A stretch of DNA of 64,000 bases from an uncultured virus (IMG/VR IMGVR_UViG_3300028557_000031). Its lineage: Duplodnaviria > Heunggongvirae > Uroviricota > Caudoviricetes. The notes under the pieces are model-generated. The model was not told where the DNA came from, did not search any database, and saw only the letters and a program-made list of their open reading frames with translations. Below, piece by piece: positions 8,473-34,646 of this stretch. The position numbers and the translations under genes are program-made. Location: positions 1 to 64,000 of IMG/VR virus record IMGVR_UViG_3300028557_000031; one strand, 5' to 3'. Position 1 is the stretch's first letter. The number at the start of each line of letters is the position of its first letter.

Positions 8473-10473
8473 ATGAACGACACATTAGGCGACGACGATA
8501 AGACACTCTCAAGGAAGAAACCTACCTCCGAATCGGGTACTCCCGTATTGGATAACTTTTCTCGTGACTTGAACAAATTGGCAGAACAAGGAAAACTTGA
8601 CCCAGTGATAGGTCGGGAGAAAGAGATTATTCGTATTGCTCAAATCCTTTCCCGTAGAAAGAAGAACAACCCTATTATCTTGGGGGAACCAGGCTCAGGT
8701 AAAACCGCTTTGATTGAGGGATTGGCGTCTCTTATTATCAATGGAGAATGTCCCAAAAATCTTCTTGACAAGCGTATTGTCAATTTAGACCTCACCGCTG
8801 TGGTGGCAGGGACAAAGTATCGTGGTCAGTTCGAGGAGCGTCTAAAGGTTATCCTTGAGGAACTCTCCAACAATCCCAACATCATTGTCTTTATCGATGA
8901 GATACACACATTGATTGGTTCAGGTAACTCAACAGGTAGTTTAGACGGTTCAAACATCTTTAAACCCGCACTTGCTCGTGGAGAAATTCAATGTATCGGT
9001 GCAACTACCTTGGATGAGTATCGTAAGTCATTTGAAAAAGACGGAGCTTTGGAGCGTAGATTCCAAAAGGTCATTGTAGACCCCTCATCAGTTGAGGAGA
9101 CCATCCAAATTCTCACTCACATTAAAGACCGATACGAATCGTTCCACAAAGTGGCATACTCTCAAGAAGTAATCGAACTTTGTGTGAAGCTCGCAGACCG
9201 ATATATCACCGACCGTGAGTTCCCCGACAAAGCCTTTGACATTTTGGATGAAGTTGGTGCTCGTAGTCAAACCGAGCAAAAGATTCCTGAAGTAATTGAA
9301 GAACTAAAACTCAAGGCTTCGGAAATCAAACAACAAAAGATGGATGTTGTAAAGAAACAGAACTACGAAGAAGCGGCAGCACTAAGGGACAAGGAGCGTA
9401 AAATCCTTGCTAAACTCGAAGAGGAAAAGCGGAAATACGCGGAAGAATCCTCAACAACTCGTATCCCTATCTCGGTGGAACAAGTCTACGATGTTGTTTC
9501 CAATATGACCAAAATTCCTGTGAGTAAAATGTCAGTTGACGATATTAACGCTCTTATTAATATGGACAAATCCCTTATGGAAAAGGTAATTGGTCAAGAC
9601 GATGCGGTGTCTATGATTGTCAAATCAATCCGTCGTAACCGAATCGGAATCAAAGACCCTAACCGTCCTATTGGTTCATTTATCTTCTTGGGTTCAACAG
9701 GTGTGGGTAAGACCCACTTAGCAAAACAGATTGCTAAGGAGATGTTCGGGTCAGAGGATGCGTTGATTCGAGTCGACATGAGTGAATATCAAGAGAAGCA
9801 CACACTGTCTCGTTTGGTGGGAGCACCCCCAGGATATGTCGGTTACGAAGAAGGTGGACAGCTTACCGAACAGGTAAAAAACAAACCATATGCGGTTATC
9901 CTATTCGATGAGGTTGAGAAAGCCCACAAGGACATTTTCTCTATTCTCCTTCAGATTCTTGATGATGGTCACGCAACCGATTCCCTCGGTCGAAAAATCA
10001 ACTTCAAGAACACCCTTATCATCATGACCACCAACCTCGGAGTCAAGAAACTTCAAGACTTTGGAGCTGGTATCGGGTTCTCCTCTAACAAGTACTCAAA
10101 CGAGGAGGCTAAAAAACAAATCTTGATGAAGGAAATGAAGAACTTCTTTTCCCCCGAGTTCCTAAACCGTATCGATGACACCATTGTGTTCCAAACACTC
10201 ACAAAGGAGAACATCGAGAAGATTGTAGGACTAGAACTTAGTAAACTCTCCAAGCGACTAGGTCACATGAAGTACAAAGTGGTGATGGACCCCACCCTCA
10301 CAGAGTACATTGCAAAAGTCGGTTTCGATGATGAATACGGAGCTCGTCCAGTAAAACGAGCCATCCAAGACAAAATCGAAGATTACCTATCGGAACTTAT
10401 CCTAATAGGTAAACTTAAAGAAAATCGAAAATACACCCTAAAGGTGGTAAATGAAGAGGTGAAAATCTCTTAA
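8473..10473 (+). CDS. clpC: ClpC/ClpA-type AAA+ ATPase lacking the N-terminal Clp-repeat domain
   Basis: Two AAA modules (GEPGSGKT/FIDEIH and GSTGVGKT/LFDEVEKAH), UVR-type middle domain (VKKQNYEEAAALRD), IGF ClpP-docking loop (GAGIGFS). Confidence 0.9.
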   Translation: MNDTLGDDDKTLSRKKPTSESGTPVLDNFSRDLNKLAEQGKLDPVIGREKEIIRIAQILSRRKKNNPIILGEPGSGKTALIEGLASLIINGECPKNLLDKRIVNLDLTAVVAGTKYRGQFEERLKVILEELSNNPNIIVFIDEIHTLIGSGNSTGSLDGSNIFKPALARGEIQCIGATTLDEYRKSFEKDGALERRFQKVIVDPSSVEETIQILTHIKDRYESFHKVAYSQEVIELCVKLADRYITDREFPDKAFDILDEVGARSQTEQKIPEVIEELKLKASEIKQQKMDVVKKQNYEEAAALRDKERKILAKLEEEKRKYAEESSTTRIPISVEQVYDVVSNMTKIPVSKMSVDDINALINMDKSLMEKVIGQDDAVSMIVKSIRRNRIGIKDPNRPIGSFIFLGSTGVGKTHLAKQIAKEMFGSEDALIRVDMSEYQEKHTLSRLVGAPPGYVGYEEGGQLTEQVKNKPYAVILFDEVEKAHKDIFSILLQILDDGHATDSLGRKINFKNTLIIMTTNLGVKKLQDFGAGIGFSSNKYSNEEAKKQILMKEMKNFFSPEFLNRIDDTIVFQTLTKENIEKIVGLELSKLSKRLGHMKYKVVMDPTLTEYIAKVGFDDEYGARPVKRAIQDKIEDYLSELILIGKLKENRKYTLKVVNEEVKIS

Positions 10474-11222: not shown

Positions 11223-12046
11223 AACACCCACGGATTTGTTTGAGGTTTCAAATCTTTTTGATGTTTACGATATCCCAATTTTTCAATCATTTTTTTACCC
11301 ATCTCAATTCCATTAAAAACATCTTCGATTACAACATATTCGTAGGGGGTGTGGTAGTCGTAGTACCCAATAGAGAAATTAATACAGGAGATGTCAAATT
11401 TACCCCGTAAAGCCCATACATCTGTATAGGGGTGAACCATATACTCTAAGTCTTCACCAATACCCTCAGTTAAAATGTTATTACAAACATCAAAGAATTC
11501 AGAATCACGGTTGAACAATTGCTGACCCCAACAATATTCAGTCACCATCCAATTTTCGGGAGCATCGAACTGAATACCATATCCAACATTTTCAAAGAAC
11601 TCGGGACTAGCTTTTTTTGAACCATGACAACCCGTTTCTTCAGAAACAAAAAATGTCGCTTTCAGATTCGGTAGTTCCTCCAATAATTCCAAACAAGCAA
11701 AAACACCAGCTTTGTCATCACCCCCAATTCCTGTGGGCTCGTCATGGTCGTTATAAGCTTTAAGAGAAGGGCGTTGCTCCCCTTGAGCATTTACCAAAAA
11801 TTCCTCACGGATATTGATAGGTCCCAACCCATGTACGGTGTCGGTATGAGAAATCACACAAGGGAAATATTCAATATTCTCATCAGTTTGTTTAGTTGCA
11901 TAAACATTTAGATGTTCATCCACGAAATATGGGATTTGTTTTTCCTTTAACCACTCACAAATAAACTCGACCATCATACCCTCTCGGTATGTTGCGGTTG
12001 GAACGGATAAGACTTTCTTTAAGAATTCAATTTTACTGTGAGTCAT
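11219..12046 (-). CDS. Zinc metallopeptidase (M28/M42/M20-like)
   Basis: HTDTVH, GGDDKAG, SEETG, QFD and YHT metal-ligand motifs. Confidence 0.8.
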   Translation of the reverse strand: MTHSKIEFLKKVLSVPTATYREGMMVEFICEWLKEKQIPYFVDEHLNVYATKQTDENIEYFPCVISHTDTVHGLGPINIREEFLVNAQGEQRPSLKAYNDHDEPTGIGGDDKAGVFACLELLEELPNLKATFFVSEETGCHGSKKASPEFFENVGYGIQFDAPENWMVTEYCWGQQLFNRDSEFFDVCNNILTEGIGEDLEYMVHPYTDVWALRGKFDISCINFSIGYYDYHTPYEYVVIEDVFNGIEMGKKMIEKLGYRKHQKDLKPQTNPWVF

Positions 12047-13181
12047 GAGATAATATTTTACGCAAAGATAGTAAAATATTCTTTGATTCCAAAGTCAGCT
12101 CATAATTGTGGTACCAGTTGTAAAAATTCAGAGGGGATATTTTTAGTTCATCACTACCCCATCTACGAATTGGTAAATCAGAATATCTACCGTCTGTTAC
12201 CTTATTAACAAAAAGAATGAGTTTATTAGAACCTGCGTCATAGTGACTTATCGCGAATCTGATATTCTTCTGTGGCACATTGATGGGTTTACCCGTTCCG
12301 AATTGTTTTAATATTTTTGTCAAAATTTCTGTTCTCTGAGGTGAAACTTCCTCGTCCACTTTCTCAAGTAAATCCGTAATCATTCGATTAGTCTCAGAGA
12401 CATACCTCGGATTCTTCTTAAATACATGAACATCAATGTTCCATCTTTCTTCTTCCCAACCCCCTATATCTTTTCCTCGAGTCAATCCATTCATTGTTGA
12501 ATAGATACTTACCGAATCTGATTGTTCCTCTTTTTTGTTCGGATAAATTTTCATCAAATAGTATAAATTTCCTGCCGATATAGACACATTGAAATAATTA
12601 CTATATTTCTCATTGGTTTCTATATTCACACCATAAGGTCCTAATACCTCACTCAATTGATTTGATATCAATTTCCCCATTTTTTCGGTAAACTCCTCAT
12701 TTTGATATTCATAAATGACATCTAAAATTTGAGTAATTTCTCTTGGATATGATTTTAAGATTGTTTCGTTGATAGGCCTTGTATCCGTATTTGCGGTAAA
12801 ATTTTCGTTGAACTTCCGATACAACTTCAAAATCATCTGATATTCCTCACCGTTTCTATCGAAATAATCTCCAAGGAAAAAATCAGTCTCCGCCATCCTA
12901 TCATAGATGATATCAGGACCTTCATACTCCATGTTGCCCCCATCCAAAAACATAGATAACCACCAATAATCAAACTCGCCCAAATTGAAAAAATCTACCA
13001 ACTCGTTACCATCCATCTTTATTTCAAAGATAGATTTTACCCTATTGGGATTTTCTATTATTTTATCTACCACACTCTGAGCTAAAACATCCTCTGCAGA
13101 TACTTTACCTTTGATGTAATCGTAAACCAACTGAGGAAAATCCTTAGTACTTTCTGAAATTATTCTTCGGGACTTGGTCAT
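12033..13181 (-). CDS. Hypothetical protein
   Basis: 382-aa ORF, N-terminal RRIISES, TATTTAT upstream. Confidence 0.65.
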   Translation of the reverse strand: MTKSRRIISESTKDFPQLVYDYIKGKVSAEDVLAQSVVDKIIENPNRVKSIFEIKMDGNELVDFFNLGEFDYWWLSMFLDGGNMEYEGPDIIYDRMAETDFFLGDYFDRNGEEYQMILKLYRKFNENFTANTDTRPINETILKSYPREITQILDVIYEYQNEEFTEKMGKLISNQLSEVLGPYGVNIETNEKYSNYFNVSISAGNLYYLMKIYPNKKEEQSDSVSIYSTMNGLTRGKDIGGWEEERWNIDVHVFKKNPRYVSETNRMITDLLEKVDEEVSPQRTEILTKILKQFGTGKPINVPQKNIRFAISHYDAGSNKLILFVNKVTDGRYSDLPIRRWGSDELKISPLNFYNWYHNYELTLESKNILLSLRKILSHDSQ

Positions 13182-13196
13182 ATTAATATAAATACT

Positions 13197-13204
13197 TATA
13201 TTTG
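13197..13204 (+). promoter_or_regulatory. Bacteroidota-type -7 promoter box upstream of tmRNA
   Basis: TATATTTG fits TAnnTTTG, 18 nt before the tmRNA 5' end. The same box recurs at 14772, 30577, 52384, 63261 (+) and 17744, 22699, 24531, 28679, 30131 (-). Confidence 0.65.
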
Positions 13205-13222
13205 TAGAGTTCTTTGAAATAT

Positions 13223-13824
13223 GGGGGTGAACGGTATTGATTGGCAGGGTTAATCATACGGGGCATGCAGTGAGATGTTTCCTATCACTTTAATCTATGG
13301 GAGTGCTTTTTAAGTGGCAACACTTTTGAAAAGCTTCAGGCTGTAGGTCTTCTTACAACTGAAGCGGTTACTGTAGCTTAGGCTATAATAACCGTGGGTC
13401 GATGGGGACATATACCTTGAAACAGAAGTCCTTATGGTGTGGTTTCTACCTTAAAAGAAATGGAGGTAATGTTTGGTGTTCTACCGATTTGAGTGAACAC
13501 TCCACAGTTTCTGATGACGATGGCAAAATAGGAATCAGATATTTCGGAGGGTTAAACAAACCCTGACCTAAGCATGTAGTCCTTTATGGGTAAACTGAGC
13601 AAGACGTGGGTTAAAAATCGAGCCCCTTCATATCGTGAGATATGTCGAAAATCGGATGAATTCAGGGGAAGTCTTTCGGGATTATCCTGAGCCAAGCCTG
13701 GTAGGAATAGGAAGGTGCAGAGACTAGTGGGTGGTAGACGCTTCTACCGTAATACCACATTAGCGTCCGACATCTTGAAAAAGATGATGATATAGTCCAC
13801 TTGTGTCGAATCCCACCACCTCCA
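13223..13824 (+). ncRNA. ssrA: tmRNA interrupted by a group I intron in the T-loop
   Basis: Acceptor stem GGGGGTG/CACCTCC with G3-U70 and discriminator A; GGGCATGC...AGCATGT helix; tag frame 13316-13381 (GNTFEKLQAVGLLTTEAVTVA*); T-arm GTGGG-TTCGAAT-CCCAC restored only when 13612-13805 is removed. Confidence 0.92.
13612..13805 (+). mobile_element. Group I self-splicing intron (194 nt, no ORF)
   Basis: P1 GGGU|U pairs with AGCCC giving a U-G splice pair; P/Q motifs GAATTCAGGGGAA and TATCCTGAGCC; R GTGCAGAGACTAG; S GATGATATAGTCC; P3 TCGGATG/CGTCCGA; terminal G at 13805. Confidence 0.9.
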
Positions 13825-13980
13825 CCGTGGACAAATTTGAAAGGGTCTTTAATTAGACCTTTTCATTTGTTCATAAATTAGATTTATAATTTATGTAAAA
13901 TTTGATGTTAAGTTTTATTATTTTTTACTACTTGACAGATAATTATTGTCGATTATAATATTCAATATAATTTATACAAA

Positions 13981-14649: not shown

Positions 14650-14737
14650 GGAAAAGTATCCAAGTTGTTGTACGGCACCTGACTTAAAATCAGACATAAG
14701 GTAAACCATATCGGGGAATCAAATCCCTCCTTTTCCG
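14650..14737 (+). tRNA. Degenerate tRNA with a Ser-type body and TAA anticodon (probable pseudo-tRNA)
   Basis: Acceptor GGAAAAG/CTTTTCC, discriminator G, long variable region, loop CT-TAA-AA, T-loop ATCAAAT, D-loop lacks GG. Confidence 0.55.
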
Positions 14738-15506: not shown

Positions 15507-15582
15507 GCCGAAGTAGCTCAGTGGTAGAGCAGCTTTCGTAAAAGATGGTGTGACGCGATAGGTTCGATTCCTGCCTTCGGCT
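15507..15582 (+). tRNA. tRNA-Thr(CGT)-like gene with an aberrant anticodon arm
   Basis: GCCGAAG/CTTCGGC acceptor, canonical D arm and TTCGATT loop; anticodon arm shortened (CTTT-CGTA-AAAG) and variable region lengthened. Confidence 0.6.
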
Positions 15583-15606
15583 CTTAATTACTCAATAAAC
15601 TATTTA

Positions 15607-22311: not shown

Positions 22312-22409
22312 TGGTGTGAGCGGGATTCGAACCACGCGGCACGGTCTTTTTCACGGACTTGCTCTACCATGGGAGTATCATATGAGTACTCCACCTGAGC
22401 TATCACACC
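22312..22409 (-). tRNA. tRNA-Phe(GAA) with a hairpin insertion in the D-loop
   Basis: GGTGTGA/TCACACC acceptor, loop GT-GAA-AA, insert GGAGTA-CTCATATGA-TACTCC inside the D-loop; weak anticodon stem and bulged T-stem. Confidence 0.65.
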
Positions 22410-23311: not shown

Positions 23312-23472
23312 TGATGTTTTGTCAATTATAGAAAATCAATTTCATATTGTCAAATCGTTTACCTTGAAAGAGTTGAATTTCCGACATTTTTTATCTGAGT
23401 TAAAAGTGTTTAGTAAACTTTTTTTTGTTACAATAAACCTCATTAGTTTATTGAGCAATTTTTAGTTTATTG

Positions 23473-23544
23473 TGACCCCGAGGCGATTCGAACGCCCGAC
23501 TAGTATGTTAAGACACACTGCTCTACCATCTGAGCTACGGGGTC
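23473..23544 (-). tRNA. tRNA-Lys(CTT)-like gene with a 6-nt anticodon loop
   Basis: GACCCCG/CGGGGTC acceptor, canonical D and T arms, GTGTG-TCTTAA-CATAC anticodon arm. Confidence 0.7.
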
Positions 23545-31345: not shown

Positions 31346-33046
31346 GTGATAAAGATAAAACTGAAAATTAATAAAAATATGACAGTCTTAGGTTTCTCCG
31401 TTGGGCACGATAAAGGTGCTGTAATAATCAAAAATGGTCAAGTAATTGTTGGAATAACACAAGAAAGACTTACAAGAAGAAAACATGATGGAGCATTCAC
31501 AGGTGGTGCAATTCCCGTGGAGTCTATTATGTATTGTCTTTCCGTATTGGATATTACCGTAGATGATTTAGACCTCATTGTTTACAGTTCAACTGAATTG
31601 GTCGATAACACATACGAACTTTTCAATAAAATCTTCCAAGTACCAAAAAAGAAACTTGTGTTCATGCCTCATCATTTGGCTCACGCATATTCTTCTTTCT
31701 TTTCTTCAGGTTTCGATGAAGCTGCAGTTATTGTCGCAGATGCATCGGGTTCAATTTTAAATCATAAAACTAAACTTGGTGAATGGTATCCTGAAAAATC
31801 ACATGAAGGACTCAATGAGGGTGAAGATTGGACTGAAGGTATTTCTTTGTATCATTTTACCAGAAGTGGTCATAGTGAAGTTTACAAGAAATGGATAAAA
31901 TATCCCGTGCCCCTTGAAAGTAATGATGGAGTGTCGTTAGGTACTATGTATTCACAGGGATGTTTACAATTGATATATGAACCCAACAGTAATGTTTGGC
32001 CGGCAGGTAAACTTATGGGATTAGCTTCATATGCAAATTCAGAATTTGTAAAGAATTTCCCTGAATACATAAAATATGAAAACGATGACATTCATATACC
32101 AAACGGTGGGATTCTTCCACATATTACTTGGAGAAATGATTTTCAAACTAAAGCTAATGTTGCAGGGGTTTATCAAAGAGAACAAGAAAAATCATCCCTG
32201 ATATTGGCAGATATGATTAAAAAACTCACAAACTCAAATAATGTTTGTACTGCAGGGGGTTCCTTTTTAAATTGTAATTCTAATGAAATTATCATAAATT
32301 CAGGACTATTCGAAAATACATTTTTCGTCCCTCCAGCTGATGACAGTGGTATTCCTCTTGGATGTGCGTGGTACGCATATCAACAAGTTGCTGAAATTCA
32401 ACAAACATTTCCATTGTGGCCCTACTTTGGTAAAAAGTATTCAAATAGAGATGTTGAAGAAGCTACGAGTAAATTTCCAAACCTCCGAGTAGAATATTGG
32501 GATAATTTTGATGATATTGTTGAAACCATAACTGACAGACTTGTTGAAAATAAAGTTATCGGATGGTTCCAAGGAGGTTCCGAAATTGGACCTAGAGCTT
32601 TGGGAAATCGTTCAATTATTGCGTCACCCACATCAAAATGGATGAAAGACAGAGTTAACCATGACCATAAACATAGAGAATGGTATCGTCCTTTTGCACC
32701 TGCAGTAATTTTTGATTTACAGAAAGAAATATTCCAAACTGATTATTTTTCTCCATTTATGTTAGTTACCGCAACTGTTGCAGATGAATGGAAAGAAAGA
32801 ATCCCTGCGGTAGTCCATATCGATGGGTCCGCAAGATTTCAATCTGTCACACCAAAAAGTAATGAAAAGTTTTTCAAACTTATAAATAAATTTTACGAAA
32901 AAACTGGAATCCCTGTTTTGTTGAACACTAGCTACAATGGTGGTCACGAACCAATGATTGAAACACCATTTGATGCTATTAAATCTTTTTTAGATTGTAA
33001 TTTAGATTTTCTAATAGCTGAAAATTATATTATTAGTAAAAATTAA
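31346..33046 (+). CDS. Carbamoyltransferase (NodU/CmcH family); start probably Met at 31378
   Basis: GHD..A, QERLTRRKH, HHLAHA, GKLMGLASY, GPRALGNRS, RPFAP, LLNTS. Confidence 0.9.
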   Translation: MIKIKLKINKNMTVLGFSVGHDKGAVIIKNGQVIVGITQERLTRRKHDGAFTGGAIPVESIMYCLSVLDITVDDLDLIVYSSTELVDNTYELFNKIFQVPKKKLVFMPHHLAHAYSSFFSSGFDEAAVIVADASGSILNHKTKLGEWYPEKSHEGLNEGEDWTEGISLYHFTRSGHSEVYKKWIKYPVPLESNDGVSLGTMYSQGCLQLIYEPNSNVWPAGKLMGLASYANSEFVKNFPEYIKYENDDIHIPNGGILPHITWRNDFQTKANVAGVYQREQEKSSLILADMIKKLTNSNNVCTAGGSFLNCNSNEIIINSGLFENTFFVPPADDSGIPLGCAWYAYQQVAEIQQTFPLWPYFGKKYSNRDVEEATSKFPNLRVEYWDNFDDIVETITDRLVENKVIGWFQGGSEIGPRALGNRSIIASPTSKWMKDRVNHDHKHREWYRPFAPAVIFDLQKEIFQTDYFSPFMLVTATVADEWKERIPAVVHIDGSARFQSVTPKSNEKFFKLINKFYEKTGIPVLLNTSYNGGHEPMIETPFDAIKSFLDCNLDFLIAENYIISKN

Positions 33047-33053
33047 TTTTATT

Positions 33054-34646
33054 ATGAGTGTAATCTATGGTCTTTTCGCAGCTGGACATAGTCCATCAAC
33101 AACTTTGATTGTTGACGGTGAAATAATACATGCAGTAGAAGAAGAGAGAATCAAACGAATTAAATCGGGAGAAGATTATGGGGCGTACCCCGATTTATCA
33201 CTAAAGGCTGTCGAAGATAGAACTAATATAAAACTTAAAGATGCTGATTATGTGGTTTTTGCTGAGCCAGCACCACCGGTATATGCTAGGAGATTAACTA
33301 ATGATAATTATTCTAAAGTGTCTCACCACCTTGCACATAATACCGCAGCTTATTTTACAAGTGGAATGGAAGGAAAAGTACTTTCAATTTCACATGATGG
33401 TGGTGGAGAATCTTCTTTTATGCGAGTCTATGTATGTGAGGATGGTAAGATGAATGAAGTTCATCGATTATCCGGAACTAACTCTGGCAGTCTTTCACAA
33501 CTCTGGGGATTTATAACAAATTGGATGATGGGTCGTAATTCAAATTGTAGGTTTGAATGGATAATGTGTAAGGATGAAGGTAAGGTCATGGGAATGGCAC
33601 CTGATGGTTATTACGATGAAAGAATCCAAAAAATTCTACATAGTATCCTATCATATAATGATTTGAAATTTTATCCTTCGGGAACTGACCAAAAAACGAA
33701 GTTTGTTATGGAACGATTACTCGAAGAAGGTTTTTTTGACACTCTTAAAAAACGAGAAGTTTTCAGTTTTAATTTACAATACTTTACTGAAGAATTGATG
33801 TTGAGATTTATCGACGACCTACACAAGAGAATGCCCGACTACAAGAAACTCTGTTTTTCAGGTGGTCTTTTTGCAAATGTTAAACTGAACCAAAAAATAA
33901 ATGAATTACCGTGGGTTGAAGAAATATACATTCTTCCTCCAATGGGTGATGAAGGGCTTTCTTTAGGCGCGGCAATTCATAAAGCAGTTGAATTAGGTGA
34001 AATTACAAAACCAATAAAACTTAAAAATGTATATTTTGGTTTTGATTATTCAGATGAAGAAGTTATAAACTTGGCTACAAAACATGATTTTTTAGTTAAA
34101 AAATATATTGTTGATGAAATTGCGACGGATTTAAATAAAGGTTTGATTATTGGATGGTTTCAAGGTAAAATGGAACTTGGACCACGTTCCTTGGGAGCAA
34201 GGAGTATTTTGGTAAGACCTACAGATTACAATACCCACGCAGAGTTAAATCGAAGATTGAAAAGATATGATACAATGCCTTTTGCACCAATGATAATGGG
34301 TGAGTTTTTTGAAACGGTTTTCCCGACCGCAAAATCCAAGTATGCCGCTCAGTTTATGACTTTAACATTTCCAACCCATGAACCATGGATTTATAAAATT
34401 CCCGCAGTAATTCAGAAATCGGATAAAACTGCCAGACCTCAGGTAGTGGAAAAAGAAAATCTTCCCAAAGTTTGGGAACTTATGAATTCGTACTACGAAC
34501 TCTCAGGAATCCCATTACTACTTAACACCTCATTCAATGCTCATAACGAACCCATTATTGAGCACCCCGAAAATGCTTTTGTTCACCTTAAAAATAAAGT
34601 GATTGATAAATTAGTTATTGGAGATTATGTATACGAAAATAAATAA
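33054..34646 (+). CDS. Carbamoyltransferase (NodU/CmcH family), second paralog
   Basis: EEERIKRIK, HHLAH, EGKVMGMA, GGLFANV, GPRSLGARS, LLNTSFN. Confidence 0.9.
   Translation: MSVIYGLFAAGHSPSTTLIVDGEIIHAVEEERIKRIKSGEDYGAYPDLSLKAVEDRTNIKLKDADYVVFAEPAPPVYARRLTNDNYSKVSHHLAHNTAAYFTSGMEGKVLSISHDGGGESSFMRVYVCEDGKMNEVHRLSGTNSGSLSQLWGFITNWMMGRNSNCRFEWIMCKDEGKVMGMAPDGYYDERIQKILHSILSYNDLKFYPSGTDQKTKFVMERLLEEGFFDTLKKREVFSFNLQYFTEELMLRFIDDLHKRMPDYKKLCFSGGLFANVKLNQKINELPWVEEIYILPPMGDEGLSLGAAIHKAVELGEITKPIKLKNVYFGFDYSDEEVINLATKHDFLVKKYIVDEIATDLNKGLIIGWFQGKMELGPRSLGARSILVRPTDYNTHAELNRRLKRYDTMPFAPMIMGEFFETVFPTAKSKYAAQFMTLTFPTHEPWIYKIPAVIQKSDKTARPQVVEKENLPKVWELMNSYYELSGIPLLLNTSFNAHNEPIIEHPENAFVHLKNKVIDKLVIGDYVYENK

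What the first reader, a model, noticed from the sequence alone, without database searches (positions are those of the whole stretch)
13612..13805. Very compact group I intron in the T-loop of a phage tmRNA
Seen: removing 13612-13805 restores GTGGG-TTCGAAT-CCCAC. The insert has a U-G splice pair in P1 (GGGU/GCCC), a P10 option (TCGA against the 3' exon TCGA), P2 CATATC-GTGA-GATATG, P3, P/Q/R/S motifs, an extra P7.1-type helix (GTGG..GGTAGA/TCTACC..CCAC, a subgroup IA-like trait), P8 CATCTT-GAAA-AAGATG and a terminal G. Only CACTTGTG follows P7, so P9 is nearly absent, and there is no homing endonuclease ORF. Known: a T-loop group I intron in tmRNA has been described in Clostridium, and the Azoarcus tRNA intron (~205 nt) is the classic small example. 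Inference: at 194 nt this is among the smallest natural group I introns, and tmRNA function here depends on splicing.
Basis: partly seen in the sequence, partly recalled or inferred. Interest (0 to 1): 0.85.

Follow-up and report, generated by a model that had tools for sequence, protein, structure and literature searches.

The report
Miniature group I intron in phage tmRNA
A phage gene for the ribosome-rescue RNA (tmRNA) is interrupted by an unusually small self-splicing-type intron, a stripped-down relative of introns already known in bacterial tmRNA genes.

Summary
Rfam's group I intron model hits 13602-13818 at 75.1 bits. ARAGORN finds a tmRNA only once 13612-13805 is removed. Sister phages carry intron-less alleles, and these align with a single 193-195-nt gap at the predicted splice sites.

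The window type ('form A', 192-196 nt, 13 complete distinct loci) has no P9. It sits after the first T-loop U. A 222-223-nt sister 'form B' (6 loci) sits one nucleotide downstream. Form B has a P9 GAAA hairpin and a receptor-like insert in P5; form A lacks both.

Indirect evidence for splicing:
- compensatory changes in P2, P5, P8 and the exon T-stem;
- an intact 21-codon tag frame in 25 of 25 loci.

Splicing itself is not shown, because the RNA contigs were inconclusive.

T-loop introns in tmRNA are already published: 883 unique sequences at four subsites (PMC11915505). This is therefore a new variant of a known kind. It is phage-borne, P9-less, and shorter than all 102 bacterial tRNA-gene relatives measured here (198-564 nt).

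The parts
13223..13611 (+). tmRNA exon 1: 5' acceptor strand (G3.U pair), tag reading frame, pseudoknot body, 5' T-stem strand GUGGG and first T-loop U
   Evidence: ARAGORN call after in-script intron removal. It is 84-88% alignable to the intron-less orthologue L002:3549-3959, which scores 84.6 bits on Rfam tmRNA.
13316..13381 (+). tag reading frame, 21 codons plus stop (GNTFEKLQAVGLLTTEAVTVA*)
   Evidence: The same-length frame is intact in 25 of 25 distinct related loci and carries many synonymous differences.
13612..13805 (+). group I intron, 194 nt, 'form A', no P9, no ORF
   Evidence: Rfam RF00028 at 75.1 bits. The alignment gap against intron-less alleles falls at these boundaries. -1 U13611 pairs with G13622 and the terminal G is 13805.
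13608..13625 (+). P1: exon GGGU 13608-13611 paired with guide GCCC 13622-13625. The loop 13612-13621 holds the P10 guide UCGA 13618-13621.
   Evidence: Helix 1 never varies among the form A rows.
13629..13644 (+). P2 hairpin CAUAUC-GUGA-GAUAUG
   Evidence: two pairs change on both sides. MFE folding recovers the hairpin.
13652..13770 (+). P3 (13652-13658 with 13764-13770), enclosing P4 (13662-13667/13685-13690), P5 (13671-13674/13679-13682), P6 (13691-13693/13714-13716), P6a (13697-13699/13709-13711), the P7 5' strand and P7.1
   Evidence: 100% of cells paired, but the helices are almost invariant. One P5 pair changes on both sides. MFE folding recovers P3, P4 and P5.
13720..13798 (+). P7 pseudoknot: G13720 and 13722-13726 (bulged A13721) paired with 13793-13798. 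This is the presumed guanosine-binding helix.
   Evidence: invariant in 17 of 17 distinct rows. The Rfam consensus blocks AGACUA and AUAGUC align here.
13727..13758 (+). P7.1 extension: GUGG/CCAC plus inner helix GGUAGA-CGCU-UCUACC
   Evidence: Rfam treats it as a 35-nt insertion. The bacterial tmRNA intron L126 has the same layout.
13771..13786 (+). P8 hairpin CAUCUU-GAAA-AAGAUG
   Evidence: two pairs change on both sides. The loop varies among relatives.
13799..13805 (+). unstructured 3' tail ACUUGUG ending in the terminal G 13805; it takes the place of P9.0/P9
   Evidence: Relatives carry a 1-nt or a 3-nt insertion here (L015, L031).
13806..13826 (+). tmRNA exon 2: T-loop nt 2-7, 3' T-stem strand CCCAC, 3' acceptor strand, ACC
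   Evidence: The T-stem co-varies with exon 1 across alleles.
13838..13865 (+). terminator-like hairpin 12 nt after the tmRNA 3' end
   Evidence: 11-pair stem followed by a T-rich tail. One site found against 0.6 expected.

Best explanation
Window 13612-13805 is a 194-nt group I intron that splits the T-loop of a phage-encoded tmRNA gene between the first and second loop U.

The proposed pathway is inferred from established group I chemistry and was not observed here:
1. The primary transcript folds into the P3-P8 core.
2. The guide sequence UCGA-GCCC (13618-13625) pairs with exon 1 GGGU to form P1, with the U13611.G13622 wobble marking the 5' splice site.
3. A free guanosine bound at P7 attacks that site.
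4. The UCGA half of the guide pairs with the first four bases of exon 2 to form P10.
5. The terminal G13805 enters the same pocket, and the exons are ligated.
6. Ligation restores the T-arm of GUGGG, a 7-nt loop and CCCAC, and so yields a chargeable tmRNA with a 21-residue tag.

The intron is a miniaturised member of the family already known in Bacteroidia tmRNA genes. Its 222-223-nt sister form, found in related phages, sits one nucleotide downstream. That form has a P9 hairpin with a GAAA loop and a receptor-like insert in P5. The window form has neither. Its guide reads AG where the sister form reads GA, which moves both splice sites by one nucleotide. Only P10 and the terminal G are left to define its 3' splice site.
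For: Identity:
- Rfam 75.1 bits.
- A tmRNA is detectable only after the intron is removed.
- The intron-less orthologue scores 84.6 bits on Rfam tmRNA.

Empty sites:
- 5 of 10 viral contigs holding the tmRNA anchor lack the intron.
- Five of the six intron-less versus form A alignments have one 193-195-nt gap at GGGT|...|TCGA. In the sixth (L012 v L026) the aligner split the gap in two (43 + 150 nt).

Maintenance of the small form:
- 13 complete distinct form A loci measure 192-196 nt.
- On 20 aligned introns (17 distinct rows), 96.2% of cells pair, against 35-41% when the partners are slid.
- Five pairs change on both sides, in P2, P5 and P8. Zero of 500 shuffles reach the observed covariation score.

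Exons stay functional:
- The T-stem occurs as GUGGG/CCCAC, GCGGG/CCCGC and AUGGG/CCCAU, always 5 of 5 paired, in 20 of 20 loci.
- The 21-codon tag frame is intact in 25 of 25 loci, 20 of them intron-bearing.
- The acceptor G3.U pair can be read directly from the sequence.

Family link:
- The core motif finds at least 120 bacterial loci.
- L126, from a Hymenobacteraceae MAG, is a tmRNA T-loop intron after the second loop U. It is 81% identical to form B over aligned pairs and shares the P5 insert and the P9 GAAA loop.

P10 rationale: PMC11417360 (discussion passage) states that removing P9.0 or P10 alone does not stop the second step, while removing both does.
Against: - No spliced product was seen. 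Public RNA runs held only relatives as contigs, and no joint across 13612-13805 was reported.
- One RNA contig with an intron-less junction also carries a 3' trailer. It could be DNA or a transcript of an intron-less allele.
- The P3, P4, P6, P7 and P7.1 helices never vary in this closely related set, so covariation says nothing about them.
- The related rows inflate the shuffle control.
- Loss of P9 and of any P9.0 is unusual. All 102 bacterial relatives measured have tails of at least 9 nt after P7, with a median of 28 nt. Autonomous splicing might therefore be weak.
- The MFE fold pairs the P7 3' strand with the tail and exon 2 instead.
Confidence: 0.8

Rival explanations
1. The intron is removed in vivo but is not autonomously self-splicing. 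Having lost P9 and the L9-P5 contact, it needs a host or phage protein or RNA chaperone to fold, or to carry out exon ligation.
For: The tail after P7 is 8 nt with no fold. The tetraloop hairpin and its presumed P5 receptor are both missing relative to form B and to L126. No measured relative has so short a tail.
Against: The P3-P8 core is complete, P10 is 4 bp and invariant, and the L2 GUGA loop is retained. The literature passage says loss of P9.0 alone is tolerated when P10 is present. No candidate cofactor gene was identified.
Confidence: 0.25
2. The true boundaries are 13613-13806, placing the splice site after the second loop U as in form B. The joined product is identical.
For: Both deletions restore the same tmRNA. 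The sister form B and the bacterial intron L126 do sit after the second U.
Against: With these boundaries the intron would end in U rather than G, and the -1 U would pair with A rather than with the wobble G. In L004/L010 the intron follows a single U, so only the first-U site restores the loop. The guide differs from form B in exactly the way a one-nucleotide shift requires.
Confidence: 0.07
3. The intron is a decaying, non-splicing remnant and the interrupted tmRNA is a pseudogene.
For: P9 is lost and splicing is not observed. One related contig (L011) has mismatched 5' and 3' modules.
Against: Thirteen distinct loci keep the same 192-196-nt form with compensatory changes. The T-stem co-varies across the intron. 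The tag frame is intact in 20 of 20 intron-bearing loci. A terminator-like hairpin is retained.
Confidence: 0.05
4. The ribozyme only cleaves, at the 5' site and by hydrolysis at the 3' site. That would leave a two-piece tmRNA held together by the T-stem and acceptor stem.
For: The missing P9/P9.0 could impair exon ligation. Two-piece tmRNAs exist in nature (PMC11915505).
Against: Known two-piece forms come from permuted genes, not from a broken T-loop. The conserved 4-bp P10 and terminal G are features of ligation. Nothing in the data shows cleavage products.
Confidence: 0.03

Closest known systems
Group I introns in the T-loop of bacterial tmRNA genes ('intron form'; PMC11915505, passages read), especially those after the second loop U reported only from class Bacteroidia
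   Same: The host gene and host loop are the same. The -1 U / terminal G rule applies, a P7.1 region is present, and most lack an endonuclease gene. The bacterial example fetched here (L126, Hymenobacteraceae MAG, 260 nt) is 81-83% identical over aligned pairs to the phage introns.
   Different: This one is carried by a phage. The window form sits after the first loop U, a subsite the paper reports only from Anaerolineae and one Myxococcota. It has no P9 and lacks the P5 insert. At 192-196 nt it is well below the paper's mean of 293 bp. Six motifs of this intron were not found in the paper's supplementary seed alignments, but gaps in those alignments could hide them. The full 883-sequence database was not available to me.
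Bacterial tRNA anticodon-loop group I introns (bioRxiv 10.1101/2020.01.27.920355, main text part 1 of 2 read)
   Same: They share the exact P3/P4 and P4'/P6 core motifs. ARAGORN calls an intron-split tRNA complete within its locus in 102 of 120 bacterial loci.
   Different: They interrupt the anticodon loop of tRNAs (Gln-CUG, Asn, Arg-CCG and others). They are 198-564 nt long with a median 28-nt tail that holds a P9 hairpin.
Azoarcus pre-tRNA-Ile intron (about 205 nt; recalled, no call)
   Same: It is a small bacterial-type group I intron without an ORF that interrupts a tRNA-like RNA.
   Different: As recalled, Azoarcus keeps P9 and P9.0 and uses tetraloop contacts including L9. The window intron has neither and is about 10 nt shorter. 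None of this was checked with a tool.
Group I introns of phage protein genes hit by blastn (Synechococcus phage S-SRM01 psbA region, Vibrio and Nitrincola phage terminase regions)
   Same: The core is 73-81% identical over 76-154 nt. They lie in unannotated gaps between split coding sequences.
   Different: They interrupt protein-coding genes, and S-SRM01 has a homing endonuclease gene next to the intron. None is in a tmRNA.

Membership tests
Group I intron (Rfam RF00028) | Covariance-model score at or above the curated gathering score | tested here: met
   75.1 bits against 50, E 3e-17, full model 1-253. The cut copy in L004 scores 67.4 bits.
Group I intron (Rfam RF00028) | 5' splice site after a U that forms a U.G wobble in P1, and a terminal G | tested here: met
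   U13611.G13622 and G13805. The same holds in 13 of 13 complete form A loci.
Group I intron (Rfam RF00028) | Core helices P3-P8 with the P3/P7 pseudoknot | tested here: met
   All are present and 100% paired in 17 distinct rows. Covariation occurs only in P5 and P8; the rest are invariant.
Group I intron (Rfam RF00028) | P9/P9.0 after P7 | tested here: not met
   The tail is 8 nt with no fold. Rfam aligned its P9 onto exon 2 with mismatches. P9 is peripheral to the core, so its absence does not remove membership.
Group I intron (Rfam RF00028) | Guanosine-dependent self-splicing | not testable with these tools
   Needs a bench assay. The RNA contigs were uninformative.
tmRNA (Rfam RF00023) | tRNA-like domain with acceptor stem, G3.U pair and T-arm, plus an internal tag frame | tested here: met
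   ARAGORN call on the intron-deleted sequence gives both tRNA-like domains and a tag. The orthologue L002 scores 84.6 bits against a gathering score of 47. The tag frame is conserved in 25 of 25 loci. Rfam does not hit the interrupted gene itself.
tmRNA (Rfam RF00023) | SmpB partner | tested here: inconclusive
   No PF01668 match in the 74-kb record. The record is only about 25% complete, and the host may supply SmpB.
Intron-form tmRNA (PMC11915505) | Group I intron inside the T-loop whose boundaries restore the loop | tested here: met
   I infer the subsite to be 'position 2' from the figure legend read. That numbering is corroborated because L126 and L077 fall at positions 3 and 8 in Bacteroidia, as the paper reports.
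Intron-form tmRNA (PMC11915505) | Hit by the authors' tmRNA_intron covariance model (their cut-offs: at least 500 bp, at least 150 bits) | not tested
   The model sits in their Supplementary File S1 and could not be run here.
Subgroup IA | P7.1/P7.2 extension between P7 and P3' | tested here: inconclusive
   One compound hairpin (P7.1 plus an inner helix) is present and invariant. No subgroup classifier was available. The subgroup criteria are recalled.

The most novel reading that the evidence does not exclude
Form A is a naturally minimised, still autonomous group I ribozyme of 192-196 nt, shorter than any described self-splicing group I intron. Three things would follow.
- It arose by shedding both partners of one tertiary clamp together: the L9 GAAA hairpin and its P5 receptor.
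- It now selects its 3' splice site with P10 and the terminal G alone.
- An AG-to-GA difference in the internal guide moved both splice sites by one nucleotide within the tmRNA T-loop.

If so, neighbouring T-loop subsites can arise by intron sliding (or by re-homing of a retargeted guide) rather than only by separate invasions.
Probability: 0.4. Interest if true: 0.7.

Novelty: new variant of a known kind. Interest (0 to 1): 0.5.

Why it matters
1. ARAGORN misses intron-bearing tmRNA genes. The huge-phage survey I read assigned tmRNAs with ARAGORN (PMC7162821, methods passage). Phage tmRNA counts may therefore be too low.

2. The paired natural forms are a ready-made experiment on what P9 and the tetraloop-receptor clamp contribute. 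One has both the P9 GAAA hairpin and the P5 insert and the other has neither, on an almost identical core. They also offer a very small scaffold for ribozyme engineering.

3. Near-identical cores sit at two adjacent T-loop subsites, with a matching change in the guide sequence. This bears on the published inference that the four tmRNA subsites reflect separate founding invasions (PMC11915505, abstract).

4. The intron is present or absent among alleles with identical tag peptides. It was therefore gained or lost recently, despite having no endonuclease gene of its own.

Tried and rejected
- RNA evidence: 24 runs were listed, and none held half of the sampled words. I laid four (X1, X4, X5, X7) at 90% likeness. 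Only relatives were present, as contigs, and no joint across the intron was reported. In RNA run X7, contigs cross the exon 1-intron junction. Another contig shows an intron-less junction plus a 3' trailer. Intron-less alleles exist as DNA, so this does not show splicing.
- A 21-nt motif from that contig hit only unrelated tRNA genes in viral contigs.
- The 17-mer scan also returned L023 and L024. These are chance matches in non-intron sequence and I dropped them.
- The exact 20-mer of P7/P7.1 found nothing in genome contigs.
- Literature searches for the smallest group I intron or for natural P9-less introns returned nothing usable.
- A search for tmRNA + phage + intron + T-loop returned 5 papers. 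From their listing, and from the PMC11915505 passages I read, none appears to describe an intron in a phage tmRNA.
- Earlier scan notes: none for this genome.
- No SmpB gene was found in the partial record.

Full report
**What is at the coordinates**

Rfam's group I intron model matches 13602-13818 on the + strand at 75.1 bits (gathering score 50, E 3e-17), across the whole model. A permissive rescan of 13100-13950 gave only this hit and two weak chance hits.

ARAGORN finds nine tRNAs but no tmRNA in the intact window. When a script removes 13612-13805, ARAGORN calls a 410-nt tmRNA. It spans 13223-13611 plus 13806-13826, with both tRNA-like domains and a 21-residue tag. Removing 13613-13806 gives the same product. 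Frames shifted one or two bases upstream give nothing. The acceptor stem read from that output has the G3.U pair.

The record is an IMG/VR virus contig of 74,204 b, estimated to be 25% complete. The window encodes a large terminase, a head maturation protease and an endolysin. 'Phage tmRNA' is therefore justified.

**Empty sites in sister phages**

The neighbouring ORF 12033-13181 recovered three related viral loci.
- L002 (88% protein identity) carries an uninterrupted tmRNA scoring 84.6 bits on Rfam tmRNA.
- L003 is identical to the window.
- L004 carries the intron, cut by the contig end.

An 18-nt anchor just upstream of the T-arm found 10 viral contigs. Five have an uninterrupted T-arm and five have an intron. 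In five of the six intron-less versus form A alignments there is one gap of 193-195 nt, bounded by GGGT and TCGA. In the sixth (L012 v L026) the aligner split the gap into two parts of 43 and 150 nt.

Presence or absence of the intron cuts across alleles. Four tag peptides occur both with and without it.

**Two forms of one intron**

Scans with a P7/P7.1 motif gave 18 metagenome loci and 16 viral loci. They collapse to 24 distinct sequences, all in this tmRNA lineage. Of these, 20 have complete introns.
- Form A, the window type: 13 loci, 192-196 nt.
- Form B: 6 loci, 222-223 nt.
- One chimera, L011: 213 nt.

The cores are nearly identical; window against L016 is 93% over aligned pairs. The differences lie in four places.

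| Feature | Form A | Form B |
|---|---|---|
| Guide sequence and exon 1 pairing | UCGA-GCCC pairs with GGGU | UCG-GACCC pairs with GGGUU |
| U.G wobble at | first loop U | second loop U |
| Exon 2 begins with | UCGA | CGA |
| P2 | CAUAUC-GUGA-GAUAUG | different helix sequence, same GUGA loop |
| P5 | short | two extra 5-nt inserts containing CUAAG and UAUG |
| After P7 | CACUUGUG, no fold | 29-nt tail folding into a GAAA-loop hairpin |

On the guide row: exon reconstitution forces the splice site in L004/L010, which has a single U before the intron, and in all form B loci, where a G precedes CGA.

On the P5 row: from memory, CUAAG with UAUG resembles the 11-nt GAAA-tetraloop receptor. I did not test this.

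Form A therefore lacks both a tetraloop hairpin and its likely receptor.

**Secondary structure support**

I wrote the structure from the window sequence and counted it on the 20-sequence alignment, which has 17 distinct rows.
- 96.2% of 997 cells form standard pairs, against 35.5-40.9% when the 3' partners are slid by 1-3 columns.
- Five pairs change on both sides: two in P2, one in P5 and two in P8.
- Zero of 500 shuffles reach the observed covariation score.

There are caveats.
- The rows are close relatives.
- I derived the structure from one of them.
- P3, P4, P6, P7 and P7.1 never or almost never vary, so covariation does not bear on them.
- The unpaired cells in P1, P10 and P2 are form B rows, which use their own versions of those helices.

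An unconstrained MFE fold recovers P2, P3, P4, P5, P8, the inner P7.1 helix and the exon T-stem (z = -2.28). It also proposes a weak hairpin that would compete with P7.

**Is the intron removed?**

The direct evidence failed. Only contigs of relatives were available in RNA libraries, and no joint across the intron was reported.

The indirect evidence is consistent.
- The exon T-stem occurs in three co-varying versions, always fully paired, across 192-223 nt of intron in 20 of 20 loci.
- The tag frame is intact and of constant length in 25 of 25 distinct loci, with many synonymous differences. Twenty of those loci carry an intron.
- A terminator-like hairpin follows the gene.

A passage in PMC11417360 says that loss of P9.0 or P10 alone is tolerated in the second step, while loss of both is not. 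Form A keeps an invariant 4-bp P10. I therefore rate removal in vivo as likely. Autonomous self-splicing is plausible but unproven.

**Relation to what is known**

PMC11915505 (abstract and passages) reports the following.
- 883 unique intron-form tmRNA sequences, all in the T-loop, from 21 phyla.
- Four subsites: 7 (the main one), 2 (Anaerolineae plus one Myxococcota), 3 (Bacteroidia only) and 8 (Saprospiraceae only).
- A mean intron length of 293 bp in 843 founder sequences.
- A smallest intron-form gene of 545 bp.
- Endonuclease genes in only 4.1% of them.

The only phage tmRNA discussed in the passages I read is an intron-less mycobacteriophage form.

A gapped core pattern hit at least 120 bacterial loci. 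ARAGORN calls intron-split tRNAs that are complete within the locus in 102 of them. Those introns are 198-564 nt long (median 246), with a median 28-nt tail after P7 and a minimum of 9 nt. The shortest tails look like boundary miscalls.

I inspected the 16 loci without such a call. Two are tmRNA T-loop introns.
- L126 (Hymenobacteraceae MAG): after the second loop U, 260 nt.
- L077 (Bacteroidia MAG): after the seventh loop nucleotide, 253 nt.

L126 shares form B's P5 insert and P9 GAAA loop, and is 81% identical over aligned pairs. The phage introns therefore belong to the Bacteroidia tmRNA intron family. Form A is its shortened derivative, shifted by one nucleotide.

Six motifs of this intron were not found in the paper's supplementary seed alignments. 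That file is stored cut, and alignment gaps could hide matches.

**Verdict**

The kind of element is already known. Three things are new here.
- The carrier is a phage.
- P9 and the P5 insert have been lost together, giving a 192-196-nt intron shorter than all 102 relatives I measured.
- Two adjacent subsites are occupied by near-identical cores with matching guide changes.

Whether this is the smallest natural group I intron cannot be settled here. The Azoarcus figure is recalled, and four literature searches found no statement on the point.

Noticed in passing
window 8473-10473 (+): A 666-aa two-ring Clp/Hsp100-type AAA+ unfoldase lies 2.7 kb upstream of the phage tmRNA. Pfam domains are AAA, AAA_lid_9, AAA_2 and ClpB_D2-small; the PHROG annotation is 'ATP-dependent protease'. 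A phage that brings both a tagging RNA and an unfoldase may run its own tagged-protein pathway.
   Followed up: partly
window 13316-13381 and 25 related loci: The tag peptide of this tmRNA lineage is 21 residues long and ends in (E/A/G)VTVA. From memory, the usual bacterial ending is ALAA. Length and C-terminus are conserved in 25 of 25 loci.
   Followed up: partly
L011 (= L046), one 5.5-kb viral contig: This is a chimeric intron with form A P1/P2/P5 and a form B 3' tail and exon 2. Under the U.G rule its splice sites would leave a 6-nt T-loop. It is either a natural recombinant or a mis-assembly across the identical core.
   Followed up: no
window 15507-15583, 23472-23544, 14650-14737, 22312-22409: ARAGORN calls a tRNA with a two-letter anticodon 'aa' and another with a four-letter anticodon 'ctta'. 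Rfam gives weak tRNA hits of 88 and 98 nt that ARAGORN does not call.
   Followed up: no
L006:1501-1619 (Klebsiella phage Muenster) and related jumbo phages: A group I core match lies in an unannotated gap between the tRNA-Ser and tRNA-Asn genes, next to an HNH endonuclease gene. It may be an unannotated intron-bearing RNA gene.
   Followed up: no
window 13197-13204: A TAnnTTTG-type motif lies 19 nt before the tmRNA 5' end and is invariant in relatives. From memory this is the Bacteroidota -7 promoter box. It fits a Bacteroidia host, as does the kinship of the intron with L126.
   Followed up: no
window 31346-34646 (+): Two adjacent Nol-like carbamoyltransferase genes of 566 and 530 aa.
   Followed up: no
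L002:3549-3959 (-): ARAGORN did not call the uninterrupted tmRNA of L002, which Rfam scores at 84.6 bits. ARAGORN can therefore miss even intron-less members of this phage tmRNA lineage.
   Followed up: no
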